Source: Alphaproteobacteria bacterium 43-37 (lineage in GTDB: Bacteria > Pseudomonadota > Alphaproteobacteria > 43-37). Taken from it: a stretch of DNA of 64,000 nt. The first letter of the stretch is position 1, and each line of letters opens with the position of its first letter. The stretch is from assembly GCA_001897475.1 (NCBI GenBank), contig MKSY01000016.1, forward strand, positions 1,177 to 65,176, written 5' to 3'. Position numbers and translations under genes: made by a program. The notes under the pieces are model-generated. The model saw only the letters and a program-made list of their open reading frames with translations, searched no databases and was not told the origin of the DNA. Below are positions 23,887 through 49,323 of the stretch, in pieces.

Positions 23887-25254
23887 TTAGGCTCCTTGAG
23901 GTGTACGAATGGACATTGGGTCGTCCACTGGCATGTCTGATTTTGAATGGTCTTCGGGACCCTTTTTGATGGTTTTTACGCAGTATATAACAAATGAAAA
24001 CAACAAAACTGCATAAACCAAAACAAATAATATAAGCGATGTCATCACGGCCTGCGGAGGAAGCTTTGACACGGCATCACGGGTCAAAACATGTCCGTAC
24101 ACTAGCCAGGGTTGCCTGCCAAATTCTGTCACATACCAACCCGACAACGTCGCGATAAAACCTACTGGCAAAGAATACAAGCACAACTTCAGGAATGAAC
24201 GATGCTTCTCAATTAGTTTTCGTCGCCATAGGAGGTACCCACCATAAAAAGCTATAGCCAACATCAACAGCCCTGCTCCAATCATTATGCGGAAGCTAAA
24301 GAAAACGAGAGCAACATTTGGACGTTTGTCAGCAGGAACCTCTTTAAGCCCCTTAACAACGCCATCCATTTCATGCGTTAAAATAAGGCTACCCATTTTT
24401 GGTAAATTTATCTCAAAATTGTTTTTCTCAGCTTTTGCATCAGGAATGGCAAATATTGTAAACGGCGCACCAGCCATAGTATCCCAACGGCCTTCCATAG
24501 CAGCTACCTTTAACGGTTGCTGCTCAAATGCAGCAAGTCCATGCAGGTCCCCAATAAAAATTTGCAGTGGCGCCAGAATTGCAAGGGCAATGATGGCATT
24601 CTTAAAACCTGTTTTTGCAAACTCAAGATGCTTCTTTTGAAGATAAAAATAAGCACAGACTCCCAAAATGACGAATCCTGCTGTCAAATAAGAACCAAGA
24701 ACCACATGCACAAACCGATAGAAGAATGTCGGGTTAAAAATAATATCTATCCAATTCCCAACAAAAAACACACCGTCTTTTAATAAATAGCCAGACGGTG
24801 ATTGCATCCAGGATATGACGGCAATAATCCAAAAGGCACTCATGGCCGTGCCAGCAGCAACAAGGGCCGTTGAGGTAAAATGAAGCTTCTTACCCACACG
24901 ATTAAGTCCAAATAACATAATACCAAGAAAGCCTGCTTCTAAGAAAAAGGCAGATAAAACTTCATAAGCTAATAATGGGCCCAAAACATTGCCTGTTTTA
25001 GTCGCAAATCCATTGAAGTTTGCACCAATTTCAAAAGATAATACCAGTCCCGTAACCACCCCCGTTCCAAACCCAAGAGCAAAAATCTTGGACCAGAATT
25101 TGTAAAGTGAGAGATAAACGTCATCCTTAGTCTTCAGCCACATGGCTTCAAAAAAAGCCAGGAAGCCAGCAAGACCAATGGTCAACGCGGGAAAAAGTAT
25201 ATGAAACGAGACAGTAAAAGCAAACTGTACGCGCGACAAAATTTCTGTGGTCAT
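23887..25254 (-). CDS. cydA: Cytochrome bd ubiquinol oxidase subunit I
   Basis: Q-loop and heme-ligand regions are present. The ORF-track start is 25308. The preferred start is the ATG at 25254 (MTTEILSRVQFAFT), with GGAG 8 nt upstream. Confidence 0.95.
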   Translation of the reverse strand: MTTEILSRVQFAFTVSFHILFPALTIGLAGFLAFFEAMWLKTKDDVYLSLYKFWSKIFALGFGTGVVTGLVLSFEIGANFNGFATKTGNVLGPLLAYEVLSAFFLEAGFLGIMLFGLNRVGKKLHFTSTALVAAGTAMSAFWIIAVISWMQSPSGYLLKDGVFFVGNWIDIIFNPTFFYRFVHVVLGSYLTAGFVILGVCAYFYLQKKHLEFAKTGFKNAIIALAILAPLQIFIGDLHGLAAFEQQPLKVAAMEGRWDTMAGAPFTIFAIPDAKAEKNNFEINLPKMGSLILTHEMDGVVKGLKEVPADKRPNVALVFFSFRIMIGAGLLMLAIAFYGGYLLWRRKLIEKHRSFLKLCLYSLPVGFIATLSGWYVTEFGRQPWLVYGHVLTRDAVSKLPPQAVMTSLILFVLVYAVLLFSFVIYCVKTIKKGPEDHSKSDMPVDDPMSIRTPQGA

Positions 25255-41783: not shown

Positions 41784-43085
41784 GTGATTCAACAGTGGTT
41801 TAAAGACACTAAGGTATACCTCGAACCTCGTATTATTGCCATCGGGTTTCTAGGTTTCTTTAGTGGCCTTCCACTTCCCATTACCACATCAACCCTCACT
41901 TTTTGGCTTTCAAAAGTTGGCGTCAATTATACGTCTCTTGGCCTTTTTGCATTAGCTGGCATTCCATACACTTTAAAGTTCTTATGGGCTCCATTGCTTG
42001 ATAATATGAGAATCCCACTGTTGACCAGCTTTTTTGGCCAACGTAGAGGCTGGATGATTTTTGCTCAAATTGGATTGATTATTTCTTTCTTTGGTTTAGC
42101 CTTTTCAGATCCACAAACCCACCTTGAACATGTTGCCATTTGGATATTTCTTGTATCTACTTTTAGTGCCACTCAAGACATCGCCATTGACGCTTATCGC
42201 GTAGAAACTTTAAATGACCGCCAATATGGTGCCGGAGCGGCTATTGGCGTCCTTGGATATCGCATTGGTATGCTAGCTTCAGGGGCAGGTGCGATTGTTT
42301 TTGCTAGTTATTACGGCTGGCAAACATGCTTTACTTTAGTTGCTATTGTTATGTCCTTGGGTGTGATTGCTGTACTTTCGCAGCCAGAACCTTTTCGGTT
42401 AACTGGAAGTGAAAATGAGCAACAAAGCTTGCTCTCTCACGATCAGGCAGCGCGCGTTAGCAGATGGATTACGGATACAATTGCATCACCGTTTAAAAAT
42501 TTTATGAGTAAGCCCTATTGGTTATTAGTCATTATCTTTATCCTCATCTACAAGGTAAGTGATGCTATGATTGGCCATATGGCAACTCCACTTTACAATT
42601 ATTTGCAATTCACACCGGGTGAAATTGCAGCGGCTGCGAAAGTTTTTGGCCTTTGGGCTACTATTGCTGGTGGCTTTATTGGGGGAATTATCACCACCAG
42701 ATTAACCATTGGAAAGGCGCTTTTCATTGGAGCCATTTTGCAAACAGTTTCGAATGCCGCTTATCTTATTTTGCTTGCTAATGGCCACCAACTTACCATT
42801 TTATATTCAACTATCCTTATAGAAAACTTATGCAGCGGAATTTCCACTGCTGCTTTAATAGCTTATTTGTGTCATCTTTGTTCTGTGCAATTTGCAGCCA
42901 CACAATTTGCTCTCATGAGTGCCCTTGCCGCTATCCCCCGCACTGTATTTGCAGCTTCGTCGGGTTATCTTGTCGATAAACTAGGCTGGACACAATTTTT
43001 TATTGCAACAATTATTTTAGGCATTCCTGCTATTGGGCTAGCATGGTTCTTTGCAAATAAGAGCGTGCAGCATCATGAAGCTTGA
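41784..43085 (+). CDS. ampG: AmpG-family MFS permease, paralog 1
   Basis: 433 aa, 12-14 TM. N-terminal AmpG pattern IAIGFLGFFSGLP...LKFLWAPLLD...FGQRRGW. Confidence 0.8.
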   Translation: MIQQWFKDTKVYLEPRIIAIGFLGFFSGLPLPITTSTLTFWLSKVGVNYTSLGLFALAGIPYTLKFLWAPLLDNMRIPLLTSFFGQRRGWMIFAQIGLIISFFGLAFSDPQTHLEHVAIWIFLVSTFSATQDIAIDAYRVETLNDRQYGAGAAIGVLGYRIGMLASGAGAIVFASYYGWQTCFTLVAIVMSLGVIAVLSQPEPFRLTGSENEQQSLLSHDQAARVSRWITDTIASPFKNFMSKPYWLLVIIFILIYKVSDAMIGHMATPLYNYLQFTPGEIAAAAKVFGLWATIAGGFIGGIITTRLTIGKALFIGAILQTVSNAAYLILLANGHQLTILYSTILIENLCSGISTAALIAYLCHLCSVQFAATQFALMSALAAIPRTVFAASSGYLVDKLGWTQFFIATIILGIPAIGLAWFFANKSVQHHEA

Positions 43086-43131
43086 TGTTTTTCTTCTCAA
43101 TGAGTAACAACTCTATGAACAGGTATAAAAA

Positions 43132-44469
43132 GTGAAAGAACGTTGGAAAAAAATTTACCGCAAATTCTCTGACCGCAGAATTGTGACGCAGCTTTTCTTA
43201 GGTTTCTCTGGGGGCCTTCCTTTTTTGCTTACAGGCCAGACCTTTAACCACTGGCTAAAAAAATCAAATGTTAGTTTAACTGAAATAGGTTTTTTAGCCA
43301 TTATTGCAGCACCATATTTTCTACGTTTTCTCTGGGCTCCAATCATTGACCATACCCATATTCCTTACCTCACAAACCGGTTAGGCCAACGACGTAGCTG
43401 GGCACTTTTGAGTCAAACTAGCTTAATTATAAGTATTCTTGCCCTATCATTTTGCAACCCATCACAAAACATTTTGGCTACAGCCTTTTGCGCCTTCTTG
43501 GTTGCCCTTTCATCTGCTACCCAGGATATTGTTTTGGATGCCTACCGCGTAGAAATATTAGACAAATCTGAATATGGTATTGGCGCTTCCAACTACGTTC
43601 TCGGTTATCGCATCGGCATTATGATTGCTGGTTCTGGGGCTATATTTTTATCCACTGCCTTAAACTGGAATCTCACCTACAGAATTGTAGCAGTCCTTGT
43701 TCTTGTTGGGATGATAACTATTCTTCGTAGCCCTGAGCCACGCCAGGAGAATAGACAAAGCAATGAGCATAATAGCCTTAAAAATAAACCTGATGAGCAA
43801 AATGCTTTAAAGTGGTATGGACACACCATATGGAGCATTCTCAAAGATTTTTCCCATCAGCAAAAATGGGGAGCTGTTATTGCCTTTATTATGCTTTACA
43901 AAATTAGCGATAACTTGCTTGGCGGGATGTTTAATCCATTTTTGCTTGATATTGGATTTTTAGACACTTCAATTGCGTGGGCTCAGAATGTTGGTCTATG
44001 GACGAGTATTTTTGGAGCGACTCTAGCGGGGATCTTGATCAGCCGATTTGGCCTTTTTAACATTATGATTTTATGCGGTATTTTAGAAGCTGTATCTAAC
44101 CTTATGTTTGTTTTGCTTGCTAAAACAGGCGCCAGCTTGCCGCTGCTTTACGTATCAACAATTATTGAAAATGTCACTAGCGGTATGGCTGTCGCGGCTT
44201 ACGTTACGTTCTTATCCAGCGTTTGTAGCGTATCTTCTACCGCAACACATTATGCCATCATGACATCCCTATCCTCATTTGGCCGCATTATTGTTTGCCT
44301 CCCTTCTGGCTGGATCGCGGAACATCATGGCTGGTCCAAATTCTTCAGCCTATCTGCGCTAGCGGGTATACCAGCGGTAATACTGTTATTTTATGTTGGC
44401 CCACGCTTATTAAATAAACGAATTGATGGAAATGAAACTGACGACGAAGCTGCAGCAAAAACTACTTAA
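43132..44469 (+). CDS. AmpG-family MFS permease, paralog 2
   Basis: 445 aa with a GTG start. Same motifs (LKFLWAPIID, LGQRRSW). Confidence 0.75.
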   Translation: MKERWKKIYRKFSDRRIVTQLFLGFSGGLPFLLTGQTFNHWLKKSNVSLTEIGFLAIIAAPYFLRFLWAPIIDHTHIPYLTNRLGQRRSWALLSQTSLIISILALSFCNPSQNILATAFCAFLVALSSATQDIVLDAYRVEILDKSEYGIGASNYVLGYRIGIMIAGSGAIFLSTALNWNLTYRIVAVLVLVGMITILRSPEPRQENRQSNEHNSLKNKPDEQNALKWYGHTIWSILKDFSHQQKWGAVIAFIMLYKISDNLLGGMFNPFLLDIGFLDTSIAWAQNVGLWTSIFGATLAGILISRFGLFNIMILCGILEAVSNLMFVLLAKTGASLPLLYVSTIIENVTSGMAVAAYVTFLSSVCSVSSTATHYAIMTSLSSFGRIIVCLPSGWIAEHHGWSKFFSLSALAGIPAVILLFYVGPRLLNKRIDGNETDDEAAAKTT

Positions 44470-45742
44470 CTTCCTCAAAGGCTTTGCGGATAAGAAGGTA
44501 CTCACTCTCTTGTTGTTCGGCATTTCAAGTGCTGTGCCGTATGTTATGATCTTGGGCACACTTAGTGTTTGGTTAACGGAAATTGGCTTTACAAAAACAC
44601 TGATTGGTTATTTTGCTATTATTAGTGCAACTTATCCTTTCAAATTTTTATGGGCTCCCTACGTTGATACTTGGCAGATACCTTGGCTTGGCAAACGTTT
44701 AGGTCAACGCCGAAGCTGGATATTATGTAGCCAGGTAGCCGTTATCATTGGCTTGATTCTTATGGGATGGACCAATCCTGTCGAACAGTTTGTTCCATTC
44801 ATTTGTTTTAGCATTCTTGTGGCATTTGCCTCTGCTATCCAGGATATAGCCGTTGAAGCTTATCGGGTAGAAACTTTATCTGTAACTCAGCTTGGATTTG
44901 GCGCTGGCATGAGCGGATTTGGTTATCGCATTGGTATGTTAACGGCAGGAGCAGGATCTTTATATGTTTCATCCTTTTTTAGCTCTTGGACTATGGCCTA
45001 TACGATTATGTCTTTTTTAGTAGGCCTTGGGATTATGGCTGTCTGGCTTGCCGAAGAACCTCTTTTAATTGATAAAATGGCCACAACCTCATTTAATAAG
45101 CGCTCATTCATTGATAGCGCAAAACAGTTCTTCCATCAGCCTAAATCATGGGCAATGTTCATATTTATTGCGCTTTATAAAATGAACGATGCGATGGTTA
45201 TGGTCATGATGGCTCCTTTTGTTGAGCATATTGGCTTTACGAAAGTGGATATTGCCAACATCGTTAAATTGCTCGGAACAGGTATGATGATGTTTGGGGC
45301 ATTAAGTGGTGGGTTTCTCATGTCCAGGTTTGGCAGCTTTTTAACCTTGCGAGCTTGCATAGCATCCTTAACAAGTGTTAGTAGCCTTTTCATCATCCTA
45401 TCTCTTCTTGGCCATAATTATATGATGCTCACCGCTACTATGGCTATTGAGCATTTTGTCAGCGGTATGTTCTCCTCGTCTTTGATTGCCTATCTTTGCA
45501 CAAAGTGTCGCCCTGGAAACGCTGGAGCTGACTTTGCTTTCATCTCTTCCTACAACTCATTTTGCCGTGTGGTTTTTTCATTCTTCTCTGGCTGGCTGGC
45601 CGATCATTTAGGTTGGACCGGTTTTTTCTCACTAATTTTAGTAGCCACCATTCCGGGCATCTTTTTAATCAATCGTTTTAAAGACGTTTTCAGTACTATC
45701 CCTCCAGCCCACGATAATTCGATTATATCGGTCTTAAAGTAA
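44423..45742 (+). CDS. AmpG-family MFS permease, paralog 3
   Basis: 439 aa. Same motifs (FKFLWAPYVD, LGQRRSW). The start is ambiguous (ATGs at 44423, 44426 and 44432) and overlaps the end of paralog 2. Confidence 0.75.
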   Translation: MMEMKLTTKLQQKLLNFLKGFADKKVLTLLLFGISSAVPYVMILGTLSVWLTEIGFTKTLIGYFAIISATYPFKFLWAPYVDTWQIPWLGKRLGQRRSWILCSQVAVIIGLILMGWTNPVEQFVPFICFSILVAFASAIQDIAVEAYRVETLSVTQLGFGAGMSGFGYRIGMLTAGAGSLYVSSFFSSWTMAYTIMSFLVGLGIMAVWLAEEPLLIDKMATTSFNKRSFIDSAKQFFHQPKSWAMFIFIALYKMNDAMVMVMMAPFVEHIGFTKVDIANIVKLLGTGMMMFGALSGGFLMSRFGSFLTLRACIASLTSVSSLFIILSLLGHNYMMLTATMAIEHFVSGMFSSSLIAYLCTKCRPGNAGADFAFISSYNSFCRVVFSFFSGWLADHLGWTGFFSLILVATIPGIFLINRFKDVFSTIPPAHDNSIISVLK

Positions 45743-45832
45743 CCCTTGACCACACATTCGATTTGTGTAACGGTATTCAAGATACTGATGAAAAATAATA
45801 AACGTTGAAACCTTAAACCGTACATAAGGAAA

Positions 45833-46477
45833 ATGAGCATGCCCAATAATCATGGCGGCACGAGGCATGGTGCAGGTCGCCCACCTGGAACAGGCAAATA
45901 TAAACAGCCGACAACTGTAGTCCGCATTCCACAAAATCTTCTGCCAACAGTCCATGCCTTGTTGAAGAATCCCTCACCTGATTACGGAAGCCCGACTAAT
46001 AATAACCATGAGCTGGCCATAAATCCACTCGCCTATCCCCATGGCGAAGGCATTGCCTCCGTCAGTAGCGTTGATCAATCATCTACACACGCTTTGGTTC
46101 CCCTTTATGAAAGTCGTGTTGCAGCAGGATTTCCCTCCCCAGCCAGTGATTATGAGGAAGGAAAAATCGATTTAAACGATATGCTCATTCGCCATCCAGC
46201 GGCTACGTTTCTGGTACGTGTACAAGGTGAATCTATGTTAGGGGCAGGCATTCATCCAAATGATATCCTTGTGGTTGATCGCTCGCTTACACCTAACCCT
46301 GGGCGTATTGTTATCGCTGTAGTAGATGGCGAGCTCACCGTTAAACGGCTACTTAAGGCACACAATCAAATCATTCTCATGCCTGAGAACGAAGCCTTCC
46401 AGCCTATACATATTTCTGATCAACAAAACTTTATGGTCTGGGGCGTGGTCACCAATGTGATCCACTCGGTACTGTGA
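45833..46477 (+). CDS. umuD: UmuD-like S24 autopeptidase with a roughly 90-aa N-terminal extension
   Basis: C-terminal 120 aa match UmuD almost motif for motif: AAGFPSPASDYEEGKIDLNDMLIRHPAATFLVRVQGESM...TVKRL...VWGVV. It has an Ala-Gly cleavage site, a Ser in GESM and a Lys in TVKRL. The extension contains a strand-helix segment (TTVVRIPQNLLPTVHALLKN). Confidence 0.85.
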   Translation: MSMPNNHGGTRHGAGRPPGTGKYKQPTTVVRIPQNLLPTVHALLKNPSPDYGSPTNNNHELAINPLAYPHGEGIASVSSVDQSSTHALVPLYESRVAAGFPSPASDYEEGKIDLNDMLIRHPAATFLVRVQGESMLGAGIHPNDILVVDRSLTPNPGRIVIAVVDGELTVKRLLKAHNQIILMPENEAFQPIHISDQQNFMVWGVVTNVIHSVL

Positions 46478-46726: not shown

Positions 46727-47698
46727 TTACTTGAAACTATGATTTTGAAGCCATGTTTTGCTTATGTCACTCTTCAAAGTTGACAACATAAAGTCGCGAA
46801 AGGCTCTTATTTTTGCATTATCTTTTCCATAAGCTGGATAAACTAAATTAACTGCCCCACCAATGCTCATTGCTGGATCATATAGCCCTTGAAACAATTG
46901 AATAAACTCAGTGTTTCTTGCTAAATACTTAGGTATTGTACCAATTCCTAAGCCGTTTTGTATTAGAAGTTTGCATTGAACAGTATCATCCATAATAGCT
47001 GTATGCGCTCTAGGGGAACTACACTTTCGTCCTAGGTAAAGTAGCGGATTATTCTTGGCATCATCTCGATAATCTGTGTAAGCATTATTCCACTCATAAC
47101 GAAAGATATTATGGCAGTCTAAATCTTCGAAGGTTTCAGGCAAGCCATATTTATCAATATAGCTTTTGTGAGCATATGGATAAAATTCTGCTTTTCCTAG
47201 CTCTTTCCAAATAAACAACGAATTGTTTGGTATTGGTAACCCTGTTAAACCCACAAAAGCACCATTTAATTGCCCGGCATAAGTAAGGGCTTTAGATTCC
47301 TCCGCCCTAACATTTAAAAAAACAGTTGGATACCGCACATGGAATTCTCCTCCATATTCTGAAATGAAAGCTCGACAAAAATTCTCGCCAATCACACGGA
47401 GTTCGCCAGAAGCACCGTATTGGATTTCGCGAATATCAGCCGTTAGCTTTTCAACGTTCTCGTAGATATTTGAAGCATGTTGCTCGAGGTACTGTCCAGC
47501 TTCGGTTAAAATTAATCCTGTTGAATATGCTTTAAGCAATTCAACATCTCCTAACTGTTCTTCAAGTCGTTTGATCCGCCGGCTTACTGTTGGCTGTTCC
47601 ACACCGATAACTTCCGAAGCTTCAGTCAATGTTTTGCACTGAACCACAGTCATAAACGTTTTCAGGAGGTCAATATCAATCATGTAAAACCTTGTCAA
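46727..47698 (-). CDS. LysR-family transcriptional regulator
   Basis: 323 aa. N-terminal HTH LTEASEVIGVEQPTVSRRIKRLEEQLG and a C-terminal substrate-binding domain. Confidence 0.9.
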   Translation of the reverse strand: MTRFYMIDIDLLKTFMTVVQCKTLTEASEVIGVEQPTVSRRIKRLEEQLGDVELLKAYSTGLILTEAGQYLEQHASNIYENVEKLTADIREIQYGASGELRVIGENFCRAFISEYGGEFHVRYPTVFLNVRAEESKALTYAGQLNGAFVGLTGLPIPNNSLFIWKELGKAEFYPYAHKSYIDKYGLPETFEDLDCHNIFRYEWNNAYTDYRDDAKNNPLLYLGRKCSSPRAHTAIMDDTVQCKLLIQNGLGIGTIPKYLARNTEFIQLFQGLYDPAMSIGGAVNLVYPAYGKDNAKIRAFRDFMLSTLKSDISKTWLQNHSFK

Positions 47699-47901: not shown

Positions 47902-48039
47902 TTTGGCTTAAAAACACTCTTGCATCTTATTTTGATTTATGTAACGATAATCATGTGGCGCTATAATCCTCATATTGAAAGGGCAGGATCATGAAAAACA
48001 TTTCTCAAAACTATTTAACAACAACACTGTGGTGATTTC

Positions 48040-49323
48040 ATGAACAACACTTCTTCTTACCAGGAGGCATACAAACCCATTGCCCTACTCGATTGCAATA
48101 ATTTCTATGTCTCCTGCGAGAGGGCTTTTAACCCGAAGCTTCACAACAAGCCTGTTGTTGTCCTTTCGAATAATGATGGATGCGTGGTTGCTCGTTCACA
48201 GGAAGCAAAGCAACTTGGGATCAAAATGGGCATTCCATTTTTCCAAATCCGCCACCTTGTGCACGAGCAAGGTTTGACTACCTTATCTTCCAATTATGCT
48301 TTGTATGCGGATATGTCAAACCGTTGTATGCACCTTATTAAGCAGTTTTCACCACGCATTGAAATTTATTCCATTGATGAAAGCTTTATGGATCTTAGCC
48401 ATATTCCAGAAAGCTGCTTGATGGAGTATGCAATCAGCATTCAAGACACTATCGAGACTGTTTTAGGCCTGCCGATTTCGATCGGGATCGCGGCCAACAA
48501 AACACTCGCTAAAGTGACTAGCTTGTTTGCAAAAAAACACCCAGAGGGGATCTTTATGATCAATCGACAACACCAATTAGGCCCTCTCTTGAGCCAAATC
48601 CCAGTTGAAGGCATATGGGGCATTGGTCACCGTCTTTCCCTAAGGCTTCGTAAAAAAGGGATTTATACAGCCGAAGACTTGAGGCAATGCCGCATGAGTC
48701 ATCAATTTAATCATTTTGATGTTCAATTACGACGCTTGATTCTTGAGCTAGATGGTGTTTGTTGTCGCCCTGTTGAAGAAGAGGCTAGCGATCCTAAAAG
48801 CATTGCTTGTACCCGTTCTTTCATGAAAGGCCAGACATCTTTACACACTCTTGGCGAAGCTGTTGCGACATTTGCTTCAAAAGCGGCTGAGAAGCTGCGC
48901 AAATCCAAGCAACATGCACGAGCTGTGATGGTTTATCTAAGAACCAGCCCATTTAAACAACCTGATTCTTTTTATAAAAACACAGCCATTATTCCTCTCT
49001 CCCCTTCCACAGCGGATACCCGGCGAATCATTCAGGCTAGTTTAACTGCATTAAACAGCATTTTTAAACCGAACCTAACGTACCAAAAAGCAGGTGTCAT
49101 TTTGCTTGATTTGCTAGCAGAACAATCATATGACGCCACATTATTCGAAACACGCCAAGATAATCATCGTCTTATGGAGGTCCTTGATAACACTAATGCG
49201 AGGTTTGGTGTGGGCACTCTCAAATTTTTAGCTGCAGGCGTCAACAACGCTTGGATAACCTTGCCACAAAACCGCTCACCACGATACACGACGCATGTGA
49301 AAGAGTTGATGGTAGTATCTTAA
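48040..49323 (+). CDS. umuC: Translesion DNA polymerase V catalytic subunit (Y-family polymerase)
   Basis: 427 aa. [12 protein letters not shown]...[15 protein letters not shown]...IYSIDESF. The C-terminal motif SPRYTT is diagnostic of UmuC/MucB rather than DinB. Confidence 0.9.

What the first reader, a model, noticed from the sequence alone, without database searches (positions are those of the whole stretch)
45833..46477. UmuD homolog with an unusual 90-residue N-terminal extension containing a possible ribbon-helix-helix-like segment, preceded by an ACACA-N7-TGTGT dyad
Canonical UmuD has about 24 residues before its Cys/Ala-Gly self-cleavage site. Here the Ala-Gly site (RVAAGFPSPA) is preceded by about 95 residues, including GTRHGAGRPPGTGKYKQPTTVVRIPQNLLPTVHALLKN (a beta-strand followed by a helix). 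That would make the protein a LexA-like self-cleaving DNA-binding regulator rather than a plain polymerase accessory subunit. A 17-bp perfect dyad ACACATTCGATTTGTGT (45752-45768) lies 65 bp upstream of the start codon and could be its operator. No alphaproteobacterial SOS box (GTTC-N7-GTTC direct repeat) or E. coli-type CTGT-N8-ACAG box was seen upstream of either umuD or umuC.
Basis: partly seen in the sequence, partly recalled or inferred. Interest (0 to 1): 0.6.

Follow-up and report, generated by a model that had tools for sequence, protein, structure and literature searches.

The report
UmuDAb-type self-repressing UmuD with operators
This gene encodes a UmuD mutagenesis protein with an extra N-terminal DNA-binding piece, the same design as the Acinetobacter repressor UmuDAb, and matching operator sites lie in front of both umuD and umuC; the design, described as Acinetobacter-specific, turns out to be spread across many bacterial phyla.

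Summary
The ORF is real (45833-46477; likely start 45839). It has a UmuD-type S24 core with Ala98-Gly99, Ser134 and Lys171, preceded by about 96 extra residues.

The extension is a conserved 40-residue module, GGxRxGAGRPxGxGKYxEPTxxxR(V/I)PxSLxxxVxxLL, followed by a variable disordered linker. The module has no Pfam or PDB match. It is homologous to the N-terminal domain of Acinetobacter UmuDAb, the experimentally shown LexA-like repressor of umuDC. At least 1341 protein clusters carry it.

Upstream of family genes in many phyla lies a conserved palindrome, TTGA-N5-GT(n)AC-N5-TCAA. This is a spacing variant of the UmuDAb operator. A matrix built only from other genomes puts its two best window hits at 45758-45780 (before umuD) and 47932-47954 (before umuC).

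The ribbon-helix-helix idea is not supported: models show one extended segment and one helix.

Most likely the protein is both a self-cleaving autorepressor and the Pol V subunit precursor. It is a new member of a known kind, but the family's breadth is not described in the papers searched.

The parts
45746..45751 (+). -35-like hexamer TTGACC of the putative umuD promoter. With a 17-bp spacer, the -10 position (45769-45774, AACGGT) overlaps the operator core.
   Evidence: Invariant in the window and in two relatives, L149 and L151. Its promoter role is inferred; the sigma-70 consensus scan did not call it.
45752..45768 (.). It is not the operator and overlaps the operator's left half by chance.
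   Evidence: One match in the window. Any-sequence 5+5 dyads are common: 107 with gap 7, and about 1.7 per 90 bp for gaps 0-12. The arms are not conserved in L149 or L151.
45758..45780 (.). Operator O_D: TCGA-TTTGT-GTAAC-GGTAT-TCAA, a UmuDAb-type box with N5 spacing and a degenerate left arm (TCGA).
   Evidence: Scores 11/12 in the simple model and 23.2 bits with a matrix built from 73 sites in other genomes. It is the second-best hit in 64 kb. The core and right arm are invariant in close relatives.
45839..46477 (+). UmuDAb-type umuD gene. The listed ORF starts at 45833; the likely start is 45839, giving 212 aa.
   Evidence: (P0001, 100% identical, 212 aa).
45854..45967 (+). N-terminal module, residues 8-45: GGTRHGAGRPPGTGKYKQPTTVVRIPQNLLPTVHALLK. 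It consists of an AT-hook-like GRP stretch, an extended segment and one helix, and is the putative DNA-binding domain.
   Evidence: Invariant G8 G9 R11 G13 G15 R16 G19 T27 R31 P33 in 105 sequences. 1341 clusters at 50% identity carry it. AF2 gives a helix at 34-45 with pLDDT about 95 and residues 21-30 extended with pLDDT 82. Homologous to the UmuDAb N-terminal domain.
45968..46099 (+). Low-complexity, disordered linker, residues 46-89.
   Evidence: Length varies from 0 to about 70 aa among homologues. pLDDT is 41-58.
46124..46129 (+). Codons of Ala98-Gly99, the predicted self-cleavage site.
   Evidence: A98 and G99 are invariant. They align with UmuDAb A83-G84 (PMC4807011).
46100..46465 (+). 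UmuD-type S24 core, with catalytic Ser134 (46232-46234) and Lys171 (46343-46345). After cleavage this would be UmuD'.
   Evidence: Pfam and NCBIfam hits. S134 and K171 are invariant. The best structural matches are E. coli UmuD' 1umu, 1ay9 and 8gmt at 45-47% identity, ahead of LexA C-terminal domains.
46727..47698 (-). LysR-family regulator gene lying between umuD and umuC. It is context, not part of the system.
   Evidence: HTH_1 plus LysR_substrate domains. It is absent in relatives, where umuD, umuC and the thioredoxin gene are adjacent.
47920..47925 (+). -35-like hexamer TTGCAT of the putative umuC promoter. The -10 position (47943-47948, AACGAT) overlaps the operator core.
   Evidence: The same TTGCAT and register are found in relative L149. 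Promoter role inferred.
47932..47954 (.). Operator O_C: TTGA-TTTAT-GTAAC-GATAA-TCAT.
   Evidence: Best matrix hit in the window at 25.5 bits. The orthologous site TTGATTTATGTAACATTAATCAT lies between umuD and umuC in L149 and L150 at 28.2 bits.
48040..49323 (+). umuC, a Y-family polymerase (Pol V catalytic subunit) and the presumed second target of the repressor.
   Evidence: IMS, IMS_C and DUF4113 domains; the NCBIfam UmuC model scores 389 bits.

Best explanation
The gene encodes a UmuDAb-type bifunctional UmuD.

A dimer held together by the S24 core presents two N-terminal modules on flexible linkers. The modules bind the two halves of a 23-bp palindrome (half-site tTTGAWTAnTGT). One such palindrome overlaps the promoter of umuD and another overlaps the promoter of umuC, so both are repressed.

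After DNA damage, RecA-ssDNA filaments stimulate self-cleavage at Ala98-Gly99 by the Ser134/Lys171 dyad. Cleavage separates the DNA-binding modules from the dimerising core and relieves repression. The same cut produces UmuD' (residues 99-214), which can join UmuC to form Pol V. The cassette would therefore be damage-inducible without the host's LexA.

Shown here: the domain anatomy, homology to UmuDAb, the position and family-wide conservation of the operators, and conservation of the catalytic and cleavage residues.

Taken from Acinetobacter experiments: DNA binding, repression and RecA-dependent cleavage.

Inferred: all of these activities for this particular protein; that the GRP stretch reads the A/T-rich spacer through the minor groove; and the promoter assignments.
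For: (1) The core is UmuD-type with intact cleavage and catalytic residues.

(2) The N-terminal module is homologous to the UmuDAb N-terminal domain. The derepressing E24K mutation falls on the nearly invariant Glu of the 'EPT' motif, and K40P/R41P falls in the module helix (PMC4807011, mapped).

(3) A palindrome TTGA-N5-GT(n)AC-N5-TCAA scores at least 11/12 in 64 of 119 family upstream regions, against 1 of 595 control windows. It is a spacing variant of the EMSA-defined UmuDAb operator TTGA-N4-GTWAC-N4-TCAA (PMC11332147).

(4) A matrix built only from other genomes gives its two top window hits exactly upstream of umuD and umuC, at 23.2 and 25.5 bits. The next hit scores 14.0 bits and lies inside a gene. 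Twenty shuffles gave maxima with mean 10.9 and highest 21.6.

(5) The motif stays the same across phyla whose LexA boxes differ (my own knowledge of LexA motifs), so it tracks the module rather than the host's LexA.

(6) Protein and DNA co-vary. Acinetobacter-type modules have a loop 3 residues shorter and N4 operators in all cases examined: four distinct plasmid operator regions plus chromosomal UmuDAb. Standard-loop modules have N5 operators in 84 of 85 sites.

(7) The module also occurs fused to DNA methyltransferases (P0196, L119) and as small stand-alone proteins, as expected of a portable DNA-binding unit.

(8) 54 of 120 loci have umuC within the fetched stretch of up to 8 kb, 40 of them directly downstream. 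Full-length UmuDAb supports mutagenesis with UmuC (PMC13062779).
Against: There is no experiment on this protein or on any member outside Acinetobacter.

The left arm of O_D (TCGA) and the right arm of O_C (TCAT) each deviate from consensus. Arm-to-core spacing is N5, not the N4 tested by EMSA.

Monomer AlphaFold models show no compact DNA-binding fold, only an extended segment and one helix, which does not dock on the core.

The consensus scan finds no canonical sigma-70 promoter over either operator.

The loop/spacing covariation may reflect a single evolutionary event.

Whether the organism has LexA cannot be judged from one window.

The DdrR corepressor that assists UmuDAb in Acinetobacter is absent here and in all 120 loci.
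Confidence: 0.8

Rival explanations
1. The protein is purely a regulator, a LexA substitute that has lost the Pol V accessory role.
For: About half of the family genes have no umuC within the fetched locus, and some sit next to other repair genes such as rdgC or a radical-SAM/HHH gene. Earlier Acinetobacter papers favoured a regulatory-only role (PMC4807011).
Against: The core scores above the UmuD-specific NCBIfam cutoff and below the LexA one. umuC is the next gene in relatives and carries the same operator. Full-length UmuDAb yields active Pol V with UmuC2015 (PMC13062779).
Confidence: 0.1
2. The palindromes are bound by some other regulator, such as the host's LexA or a TetR- or LysR-type protein. 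The N-terminal module then serves protein-protein contacts (RecA, the beta clamp, UmuC) rather than DNA binding.
For: Module and operator are linked only by correlation outside Acinetobacter. The AlphaFold monomer shows no folded DNA-binding domain. In Acinetobacter a second repressor, EppR, also binds these promoters (PMC12242105).
Against: The motif is the same in Alpha- and Gammaproteobacteria, Actinomarina, cyanobacteria, Opitutia and others, and it always accompanies the module. Purified UmuDAb binds the operator, and N-terminal-domain mutants bind less well (PMC11332147). Loop length co-varies with operator spacing. The module is also found fused to DNA methyltransferases.
Confidence: 0.07
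3. The module is half of a ribbon-helix-helix. In the dimer the two TxxxR(V/I)P strands would pair into an Arc-like beta-ribbon that reads the major groove.
For: The pattern xxxR(V/I)PxxLxxxV, a strand followed by a helix, resembles Arc 'NLRWPREVLDLV' when recalled sequences are compared by eye, and the profile aligns them in that register. The extended segment is predicted with pLDDT about 80. Binding depends on dimerisation (PMC11332147).
Against: There is no second helix, so a defining element of the fold is missing. No Pfam RHH family matches even at E up to 10, the PDB profile search finds nothing, and Arc, Mnt and CopG score about 1 bit. The operator tolerates 0 or 1 central base and has two distant arms, which fits two separately tethered modules better than one central ribbon.
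Confidence: 0.12
4. It is an ordinary UmuD. The upstream reading frame would be an annotation artefact or a non-functional extension.
For: None beyond the canonical UmuD length expected from E. coli.
Against: Ten module positions are invariant in 105 sequences and the module occurs in 1341 clusters at 50% identity. No start codon is available near residue 75. The ribosome-binding site and start are conserved at 45839.
Confidence: 0.01

Closest known systems
UmuDAb of Acinetobacter baumannii / A. baylyi (A1S_1389, ACIAD2729)
   Same: The N-terminal module is the same: GGxRxxAGR...EPTKxIRVPxS followed by a helix. Both have a linker, an Ala-Gly site and a UmuD-type S24 core. The operator logic is the same, with TTGA/TCAA arms around a GTnAC core overlapping the promoters of the protein's own gene and of umuC genes.
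   Different: The window protein has a loop 3 residues longer between GRP and EPT, and its operator has N5 rather than N4 arm-core spacing. There is no ddrR partner. The gene is still linked to umuC, which has its own operator. The host is an alphaproteobacterial MAG, and its LexA status is unknown.
Canonical UmuD (E. coli; RumA, MucA, SamA)
   Same: S24 core at 45-47% identity to UmuD', with the same cleavage motif and Ser/Lys dyad and a partnership with umuC.
   Different: Canonical UmuD has about 24 residues before the cleavage site, has no DNA-binding activity, and is repressed by LexA at a CTGT-N8-ACAG box. Here there are about 96 residues that include a conserved module, and no LexA box.
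LexA
   Same: The same working principle: a dimeric S24 protein whose N-terminal DNA-binding part is cut off after RecA* activation, and which represses its own gene.
   Different: There is no winged helix-turn-helix. The LexA model TIGR00498 scores 87 bits, below its cutoff of 110.95, and matches only the C-terminal half. The operator type differs, and the cleavage product has a second job as UmuD'.
Arc/MetJ/CopG ribbon-helix-helix repressors
   Same: A short basic strand with an R-x-P motif followed by an amphipathic helix.
   Different: The second helix is missing and there is no significant sequence or profile similarity. Membership test failed.
AT-hook (HMGA-type R-G-R-P core)
   Same: A GRP core in a Gly/Arg/Lys-rich unstructured stretch, next to A/T-only operator positions (W-T-A in the half-site).
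   Different: This is resemblance by inspection only.
HdiR (Streptococcaceae) and the non-canonical LexA of Bacteroidetes (PMC8565304)
   Same: Non-LexA S24 repressors that control error-prone polymerases.
   Different: Their N-terminal domains are phage-repressor-type HTH domains, unrelated to this module.

Membership tests
UmuDAb-type UmuD regulators | N-terminal domain homologous to the UmuDAb N-terminal domain | tested here: met
   BLASTP against A. baumannii UmuDAb (recovered) gives 39% identity over 205 aa from residue 5, E 1e-42. A module HMM built without Acinetobacter sequences hits UmuDAb residues 8-44 at 35.3 bits.
UmuDAb-type UmuD regulators | S24 core with an Ala-Gly cleavage site and a Ser/Lys dyad | tested here: met
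   A98-G99, S134 and K171 are invariant in the alignments. PF00717 E 4.7e-31.
UmuDAb-type UmuD regulators | Operator with TTGA/TCAA arms around a GTWAC core upstream of its own gene and of umuC | tested here: met
   45758-45780 and 47932-47954 are the two best matrix hits in the window. Spacing is N5 instead of the N4 in Acinetobacter.
UmuDAb-type UmuD regulators | Divergently encoded DdrR corepressor | tested here: not met
   tblastn with DdrR from L124 finds no match in the window (best E 0.25) or in 120 loci. DdrR is reported as Acinetobacter-only (PMC7273328), so it defines the Acinetobacter system rather than the wider family.
UmuDAb-type UmuD regulators | Sequence-specific DNA binding, repression, and RecA-dependent self-cleavage | not testable with these tools
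   Needs EMSA, reporter and cleavage assays. Known only for Acinetobacter proteins (PMC4807011, PMC11332147).
UmuDAb-type UmuD regulators | Host lacks LexA | not testable with these tools
   Only 64 kb of the genome is available. No second S24 gene lies in the window.
UmuD (Pol V accessory subunit) | Core matches the UmuD-specific model above its cutoff | tested here: met
   NF007621/PRK10276 scores 167 bits against a cutoff of 110. The best fold matches are UmuD'.
UmuD (Pol V accessory subunit) | Encoded together with umuC | tested here: met
   umuC lies 1.5 kb downstream, after a LysR gene that is absent in relatives. The two genes are adjacent in relatives.
UmuD (Pol V accessory subunit) | Short N-terminal arm of about 24 residues | tested here: not met
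   96-98 residues precede the cleavage site.
LexA | N-terminal winged-HTH LexA DNA-binding domain and a full-length match to the LexA model | tested here: not met
   No Pfam hit in residues 1-89 even at E up to 10. TIGR00498 scores 87 bits, below its cutoff of 110.95, and aligns only to residues 82-211.
Ribbon-helix-helix (Arc/MetJ/CopG) | Strand, helix A, turn, helix B | tested here: not met
   AF2 models of the window protein and of a 171-aa member show an extended segment and one helix only. There is no Pfam or PDB similarity, and Arc, Mnt and CopG score about 1 bit.
AT-hook | GRP core flanked by basic residues that binds the minor groove of A/T tracts | tested here: inconclusive
   GAGRPPG with R11 and R16 invariant, and A/T-only operator positions 5-7 of the half-site. 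Binding mode was not testable.

The most novel reading that the evidence does not exclude
The UmuDAb design is not an Acinetobacter invention. It would be an old, widespread, portable cassette: a roughly 40-residue DNA-binding module with no Pfam or PDB match (an AT-hook-like GRP stretch, an extended strand and one helix, rather than the helix-turn-helix assumed in the literature), paired with its own palindromic operator. This pairing makes umuD/umuC self-regulated and independent of the host LexA in Alpha- and Gammaproteobacteria (including Legionella, Coxiellaceae and Rickettsiales), Actinomarina, cyanobacteria, Verrucomicrobia and on plasmids. It can also be attached to other enzymes, such as DNA methyltransferases. 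The window's gene would be a typical member.
Probability: 0.65. Interest if true: 0.7.

Novelty: new member of a known kind. Interest (0 to 1): 0.55.

Why it matters
UmuDAb is treated in the papers I read as a peculiarity of Acinetobacter/Moraxellaceae, with an 'atypical SOS box' said to be unique to that genus (PMC11332147, PMC8565304).

This window and the related loci show the same module-operator pair in many phyla and on plasmids. That gives a concrete, testable candidate for how error-prone polymerase V is kept silent and then induced in lineages where LexA control of umuDC is absent or unknown, and on mobile elements that move between hosts with different LexA boxes.

It also yields a family-wide operator model. 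It predicts that loop length and operator spacing are linked. And it gives reason to re-examine the helix-turn-helix model of the UmuDAb N-terminal domain. The module has no Pfam family, so these proteins are currently annotated simply as UmuD or 'LexA family protein'.

Tried and rejected
- Pfam on residues 1-89 and on a 42-aa minimal module at E up to 10 gave nothing.
- A PDB profile search with the module found only chance hits.
- PHROGs gave only weak hits to families of unknown function.
- The module HMM against Arc, Mnt and CopG (sequences recalled from memory) scored about 1 bit.
I replaced it with a degenerate DNA pattern.
- A homologue search with an Arenicella-type orphan, meant to reach UmuDAb, returned no Acinetobacter protein in the top 120. 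UmuDAb was recovered instead by scanning metagenomes for its published operator.
- The supplement of PMC13062779 is not held.
- The sigma-70 consensus scan did not call promoters at either operator, so my promoter assignments rest only on hexamers conserved among relatives.
- The third matrix hit (25013-25034, 14 bits) lies inside a 473-aa ORF and was dismissed as chance.
- Searches for alphaproteobacterial and E. coli LexA boxes found nothing relevant.
- The second AlphaFold job, on a 171-aa member, was run to see whether the module docks on the core. It does not.
- No DdrR homologue was found.
Full report
**The observation**

The window contains an ORF at 45833-46477 (+) of 214 aa. Pfam finds Peptidase_S24 at residues 90-206 (E 4.7e-31). 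The NCBIfam UmuD model PRK10276 scores 167 bits against a cutoff of 110. The LexA model TIGR00498 scores 87 bits, below its cutoff of 110.95, and matches only the C-terminal half.

The cleavage motif RVAAGFPSPA is present. Ala98-Gly99, Ser134 and Lys171 are invariant in alignments of 23 and 105 homologues.

An exact database match (P0001) is annotated 'Alphaproteobacteria bacterium 43-37' and starts two codons later. That start, ATG 45839, has an AAGGA ribosome-binding site 8 nt upstream and aligns with the starts of close relatives, so it is the likely true start.

There is no start codon that would give a UmuD of canonical length. The long N-terminus is therefore real.

**The extension**

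It is not an oddity of this gene. The first 45 residues form a strongly conserved module, GGxRxGAGRPxGxGKYxEPTxxxR(V/I)PxSLxxxVxxLL. G8, G9, R11, G13, G15, R16, G19, T27, R31 and P33 are invariant in 105 sequences.

The module is followed by a linker that varies from 0 to about 70 residues among homologues. The shortest members are 171 aa.

A profile of the module alone finds 1341 clusters at 50% identity with E up to 0.001 in 1.84 billion representative proteins. The module has no Pfam match even at E up to 10 and no relative in the PDB.

AlphaFold models of the window protein and of a 171-aa member agree. Both show an extended segment (pLDDT about 80), one helix (residues 34-45 here, pLDDT about 95), a disordered linker, and a confident S24 core. 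The module does not dock on the core. The best structural matches of the core are E. coli UmuD' at 45-47% identity, ahead of LexA C-terminal domains.

**Related loci**

They come from:
- Alphaproteobacteria: Rickettsiales, Puniceispirillales, the PS1 and OCS116 clades, Hyphomicrobiales
- Gammaproteobacteria: Legionella, Tatlockia, Coxiellaceae, Berkiella, Francisellaceae, Halothiobacillus, Sulfurivirga, Arenicella
- Candidatus Actinomarina
- Planctomycetes
- Cyanobacteria
- Opitutia
- Other phyla

Nearly all hits are module plus S24 core. 54 of the 120 loci have umuC within the fetched stretch of up to 8 kb. In 40 it is directly downstream, and in 12 Actinomarina loci it is divergent across a 73-bp spacer.

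In a relative 80% identical to the window protein, umuD, umuC and a thioredoxin gene are adjacent. The LysR gene at 46727-47698 therefore separates the pair only in this window.

**The operator**

Printing the upstream regions showed the same palindrome in front of most family genes, whatever the phylum. An example is TTTTGAATAGTGTACATTATTCAAAA.

A 12-position model, TTGA-N5-GT(n)AC-N5-TCAA, scores at least 11/12 in 64 of 119 upstream regions. It does so in only 1 of 595 control windows taken from the same loci. The half-site consensus from 73 unique sites is tTTGAWTAnTGT.

A matrix built only from those external sites gives its two best hits in the 64-kb window at 47932-47954 (25.5 bits, upstream of umuC) and 45758-45780 (23.2 bits, upstream of umuD). 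The third hit scores 14.0 bits and lies inside a gene. Twenty shuffles of the window gave maxima with mean 10.9 and highest 21.6.

Two relatives whose proteins are 82-83% identical were compared. The GTAAC core, the right arm TATTCAA and an upstream TTGACC hexamer are invariant. The second operator sits between umuD and umuC, preceded by the same TTGCAT hexamer.

ACACATTCGATTTGTGT (45752-45768) exists. However, 5+5 dyads are common: 107 with a 7-nt gap in the window, and about 1.7 per 90 bp for gaps of 0-12. Its arms are not conserved in the close relatives. It overlaps the left half of the real operator by accident.

**Link to what is known**

The palindrome is a spacing variant of the UmuDAb operator of Acinetobacter baumannii, TTGA(N4)GTWAC(N4)TCAA, which was defined by EMSA (PMC11332147).

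I recovered UmuDAb itself by scanning metagenomes for the published operator probe. The adjacent 203-aa protein begins MPKKKE and ends LKRMR, as the published cloning primers require. The divergent gene matches the ddrR primer.

Its N-terminus, MPKKKEFEHGGVRENAGRKAQFNEPTKVIRVPESQVNFIKNWL, is the same module. A profile built without Acinetobacter sequences hits residues 8-44 at 35 bits. The window protein aligns to UmuDAb from residue 5 to 205 at 39% identity (E 1e-42).

The published derepressing mutations map onto the module. E24K falls on the nearly invariant Glu of 'EPT', and K40P/R41P falls in the helix (PMC4807011). Plasmid-borne Acinetobacter UmuD/RumA proteins also carry the module and a perfect TTGATTTTGTCACAAAATCAA box.

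A 2026 paper notes that all three A. baumannii UmuDs are long and that full-length UmuDAb supports mutagenesis with UmuC2015 (PMC13062779).

**Mechanism**

Taken together, the most likely reading is a bifunctional protein. A dimer formed by the S24 core places two flexibly tethered modules on the two half-sites of operators overlapping the umuD and umuC promoters. RecA*-stimulated cleavage at Ala98-Gly99 then removes the modules, which derepresses both genes and yields UmuD' for Pol V.

Four observations support direct binding by the module rather than by the host LexA:
- The motif is constant across phyla whose LexA boxes differ (my own knowledge of LexA motifs).
- Acinetobacter-type modules have a loop three residues shorter and N4 operators in every case examined. 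Standard modules have N5 in 84 of 85 sites.
- The centre tolerates GTAC or GTnAC (67 versus 17 sites), as expected for separately tethered modules.
- The module occurs fused to N6_N4 DNA methyltransferases (P0196; Solimonas L119, with a partial box upstream) and as stand-alone small proteins.

The GRP stretch resembles an AT-hook core, and the half-site positions next to the arm are A/T only. This is an inference, not a test.

**What does not fit, or is unknown**

- No member outside Acinetobacter has been tested.
- One arm of each window operator deviates from consensus (TCGA, TCAT).
- The consensus scan calls no sigma-70 promoter there.
- Monomer models cannot show a DNA-binding fold.
- DdrR is absent from the window and from all 120 loci.
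- The LexA status of the organism is unknown.
- The ribbon-helix-helix proposal fails its defining test, because there is no second helix and no similarity. A dimeric strand-pairing variant cannot be excluded without a multimer model.
- The helix-turn-helix model used in the UmuDAb literature is also not what these models show. The stretch said to form 'helix 1' is Gly/Arg/Pro-rich and predicted extended.

**Novelty**

The gene is a new member of a known kind, a UmuDAb-type UmuD.

The papers I could read treat UmuDAb and its operator as specific to Acinetobacter/Moraxellaceae (PMC11332147, PMC7273328, PMC8565304). A search for 'UmuDAb-like' returned nothing. The wide distribution of the module-operator pair therefore appears not to have been described, within the limits of that library.

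Noticed in passing
window 46727-47698 (-): A LysR-family regulator gene lies between umuD and the umuC promoter/operator. In close relatives umuD, umuC and the thioredoxin gene are adjacent, so this looks like a recent insertion that split the pair without disturbing either operator.
   Followed up: partly
window 47991-48035 (+): A 14-codon mini-ORF ([14 protein letters not shown]) ends 4 nt before the umuC start. Relative L149 has a 10-codon mini-ORF of different sequence at the same place. It may be a leader peptide or it may be chance.
   Followed up: no
window 41784-45742 (+): Three tandem paralogous MFS/AmpG-like transporter genes (433, 445 and 439 aa) lie directly upstream of umuD. The last stop codon is only 16 nt before the operator.
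   Followed up: no
L010, L011, L012, L016, L036, L042, L050, L074, L103, L112 (Planctomycetes); proteins P0137, P0150, P0154, P0231: Planctomycete members keep the N-terminal module, but several of the proteins listed (P0137, P0150, P0154, P0231) have lost the catalytic Ser (GxSM replaced by, for example, DDFM or DNAM). In the loci listed the genes have no umuC nearby and lack the palindrome upstream. They may be uncleavable derivatives with another target or role.
   Followed up: partly
P0196; L119 (Solimonas sp. SE-A11, 316-aa ORF): The module is fused to an N6_N4 DNA methyltransferase domain (Pfam E 8e-20 and 5.5e-17). L119 has a partial box, ACAATTTACGTACCTTAATCAA, just before the start codon.
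   Followed up: partly
L007, L015, L043, L056-L058, L064, L068, L071, L076, L087, L122 (Candidatus Actinomarina): umuC and the 171-aa umuD are divergent across a 73-bp spacer holding a single GAATACTGTACACTATTC box. This is the same layout as umuDAb-ddrR in Acinetobacter, but with umuC as the partner.
   Followed up: partly
L055, L078, L085, L096, L109, L117 (gammaproteobacterial MAGs); L006: Orphan family genes are followed by rdgC (Pfam E 1e-116) in six MAGs and by a radical-SAM/HHH gene in L006. This hints at small damage regulons beyond Pol V.
   Followed up: partly
L123 and L156 (Acinetobacter-type plasmids); L011, L036, L103: Eco57I-type / N-6 DNA methylase genes recur next to family umuD genes, both on Acinetobacter-type plasmids and in Planctomycetes. 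This may be coincidence or a linked mobile module.
   Followed up: no
P0049 (269 aa): A homologue with two tandem S24 UmuD cores in one polypeptide and no N-terminal module.
   Followed up: no
window 45811-45829: A second perfect 5+5 dyad, CCTTAAACCGTACATAAGG, spans the ribosome-binding site. Only the CCGTACA(A)TAAGGA part is conserved in relatives. It does not fit the operator half-site.
   Followed up: partly
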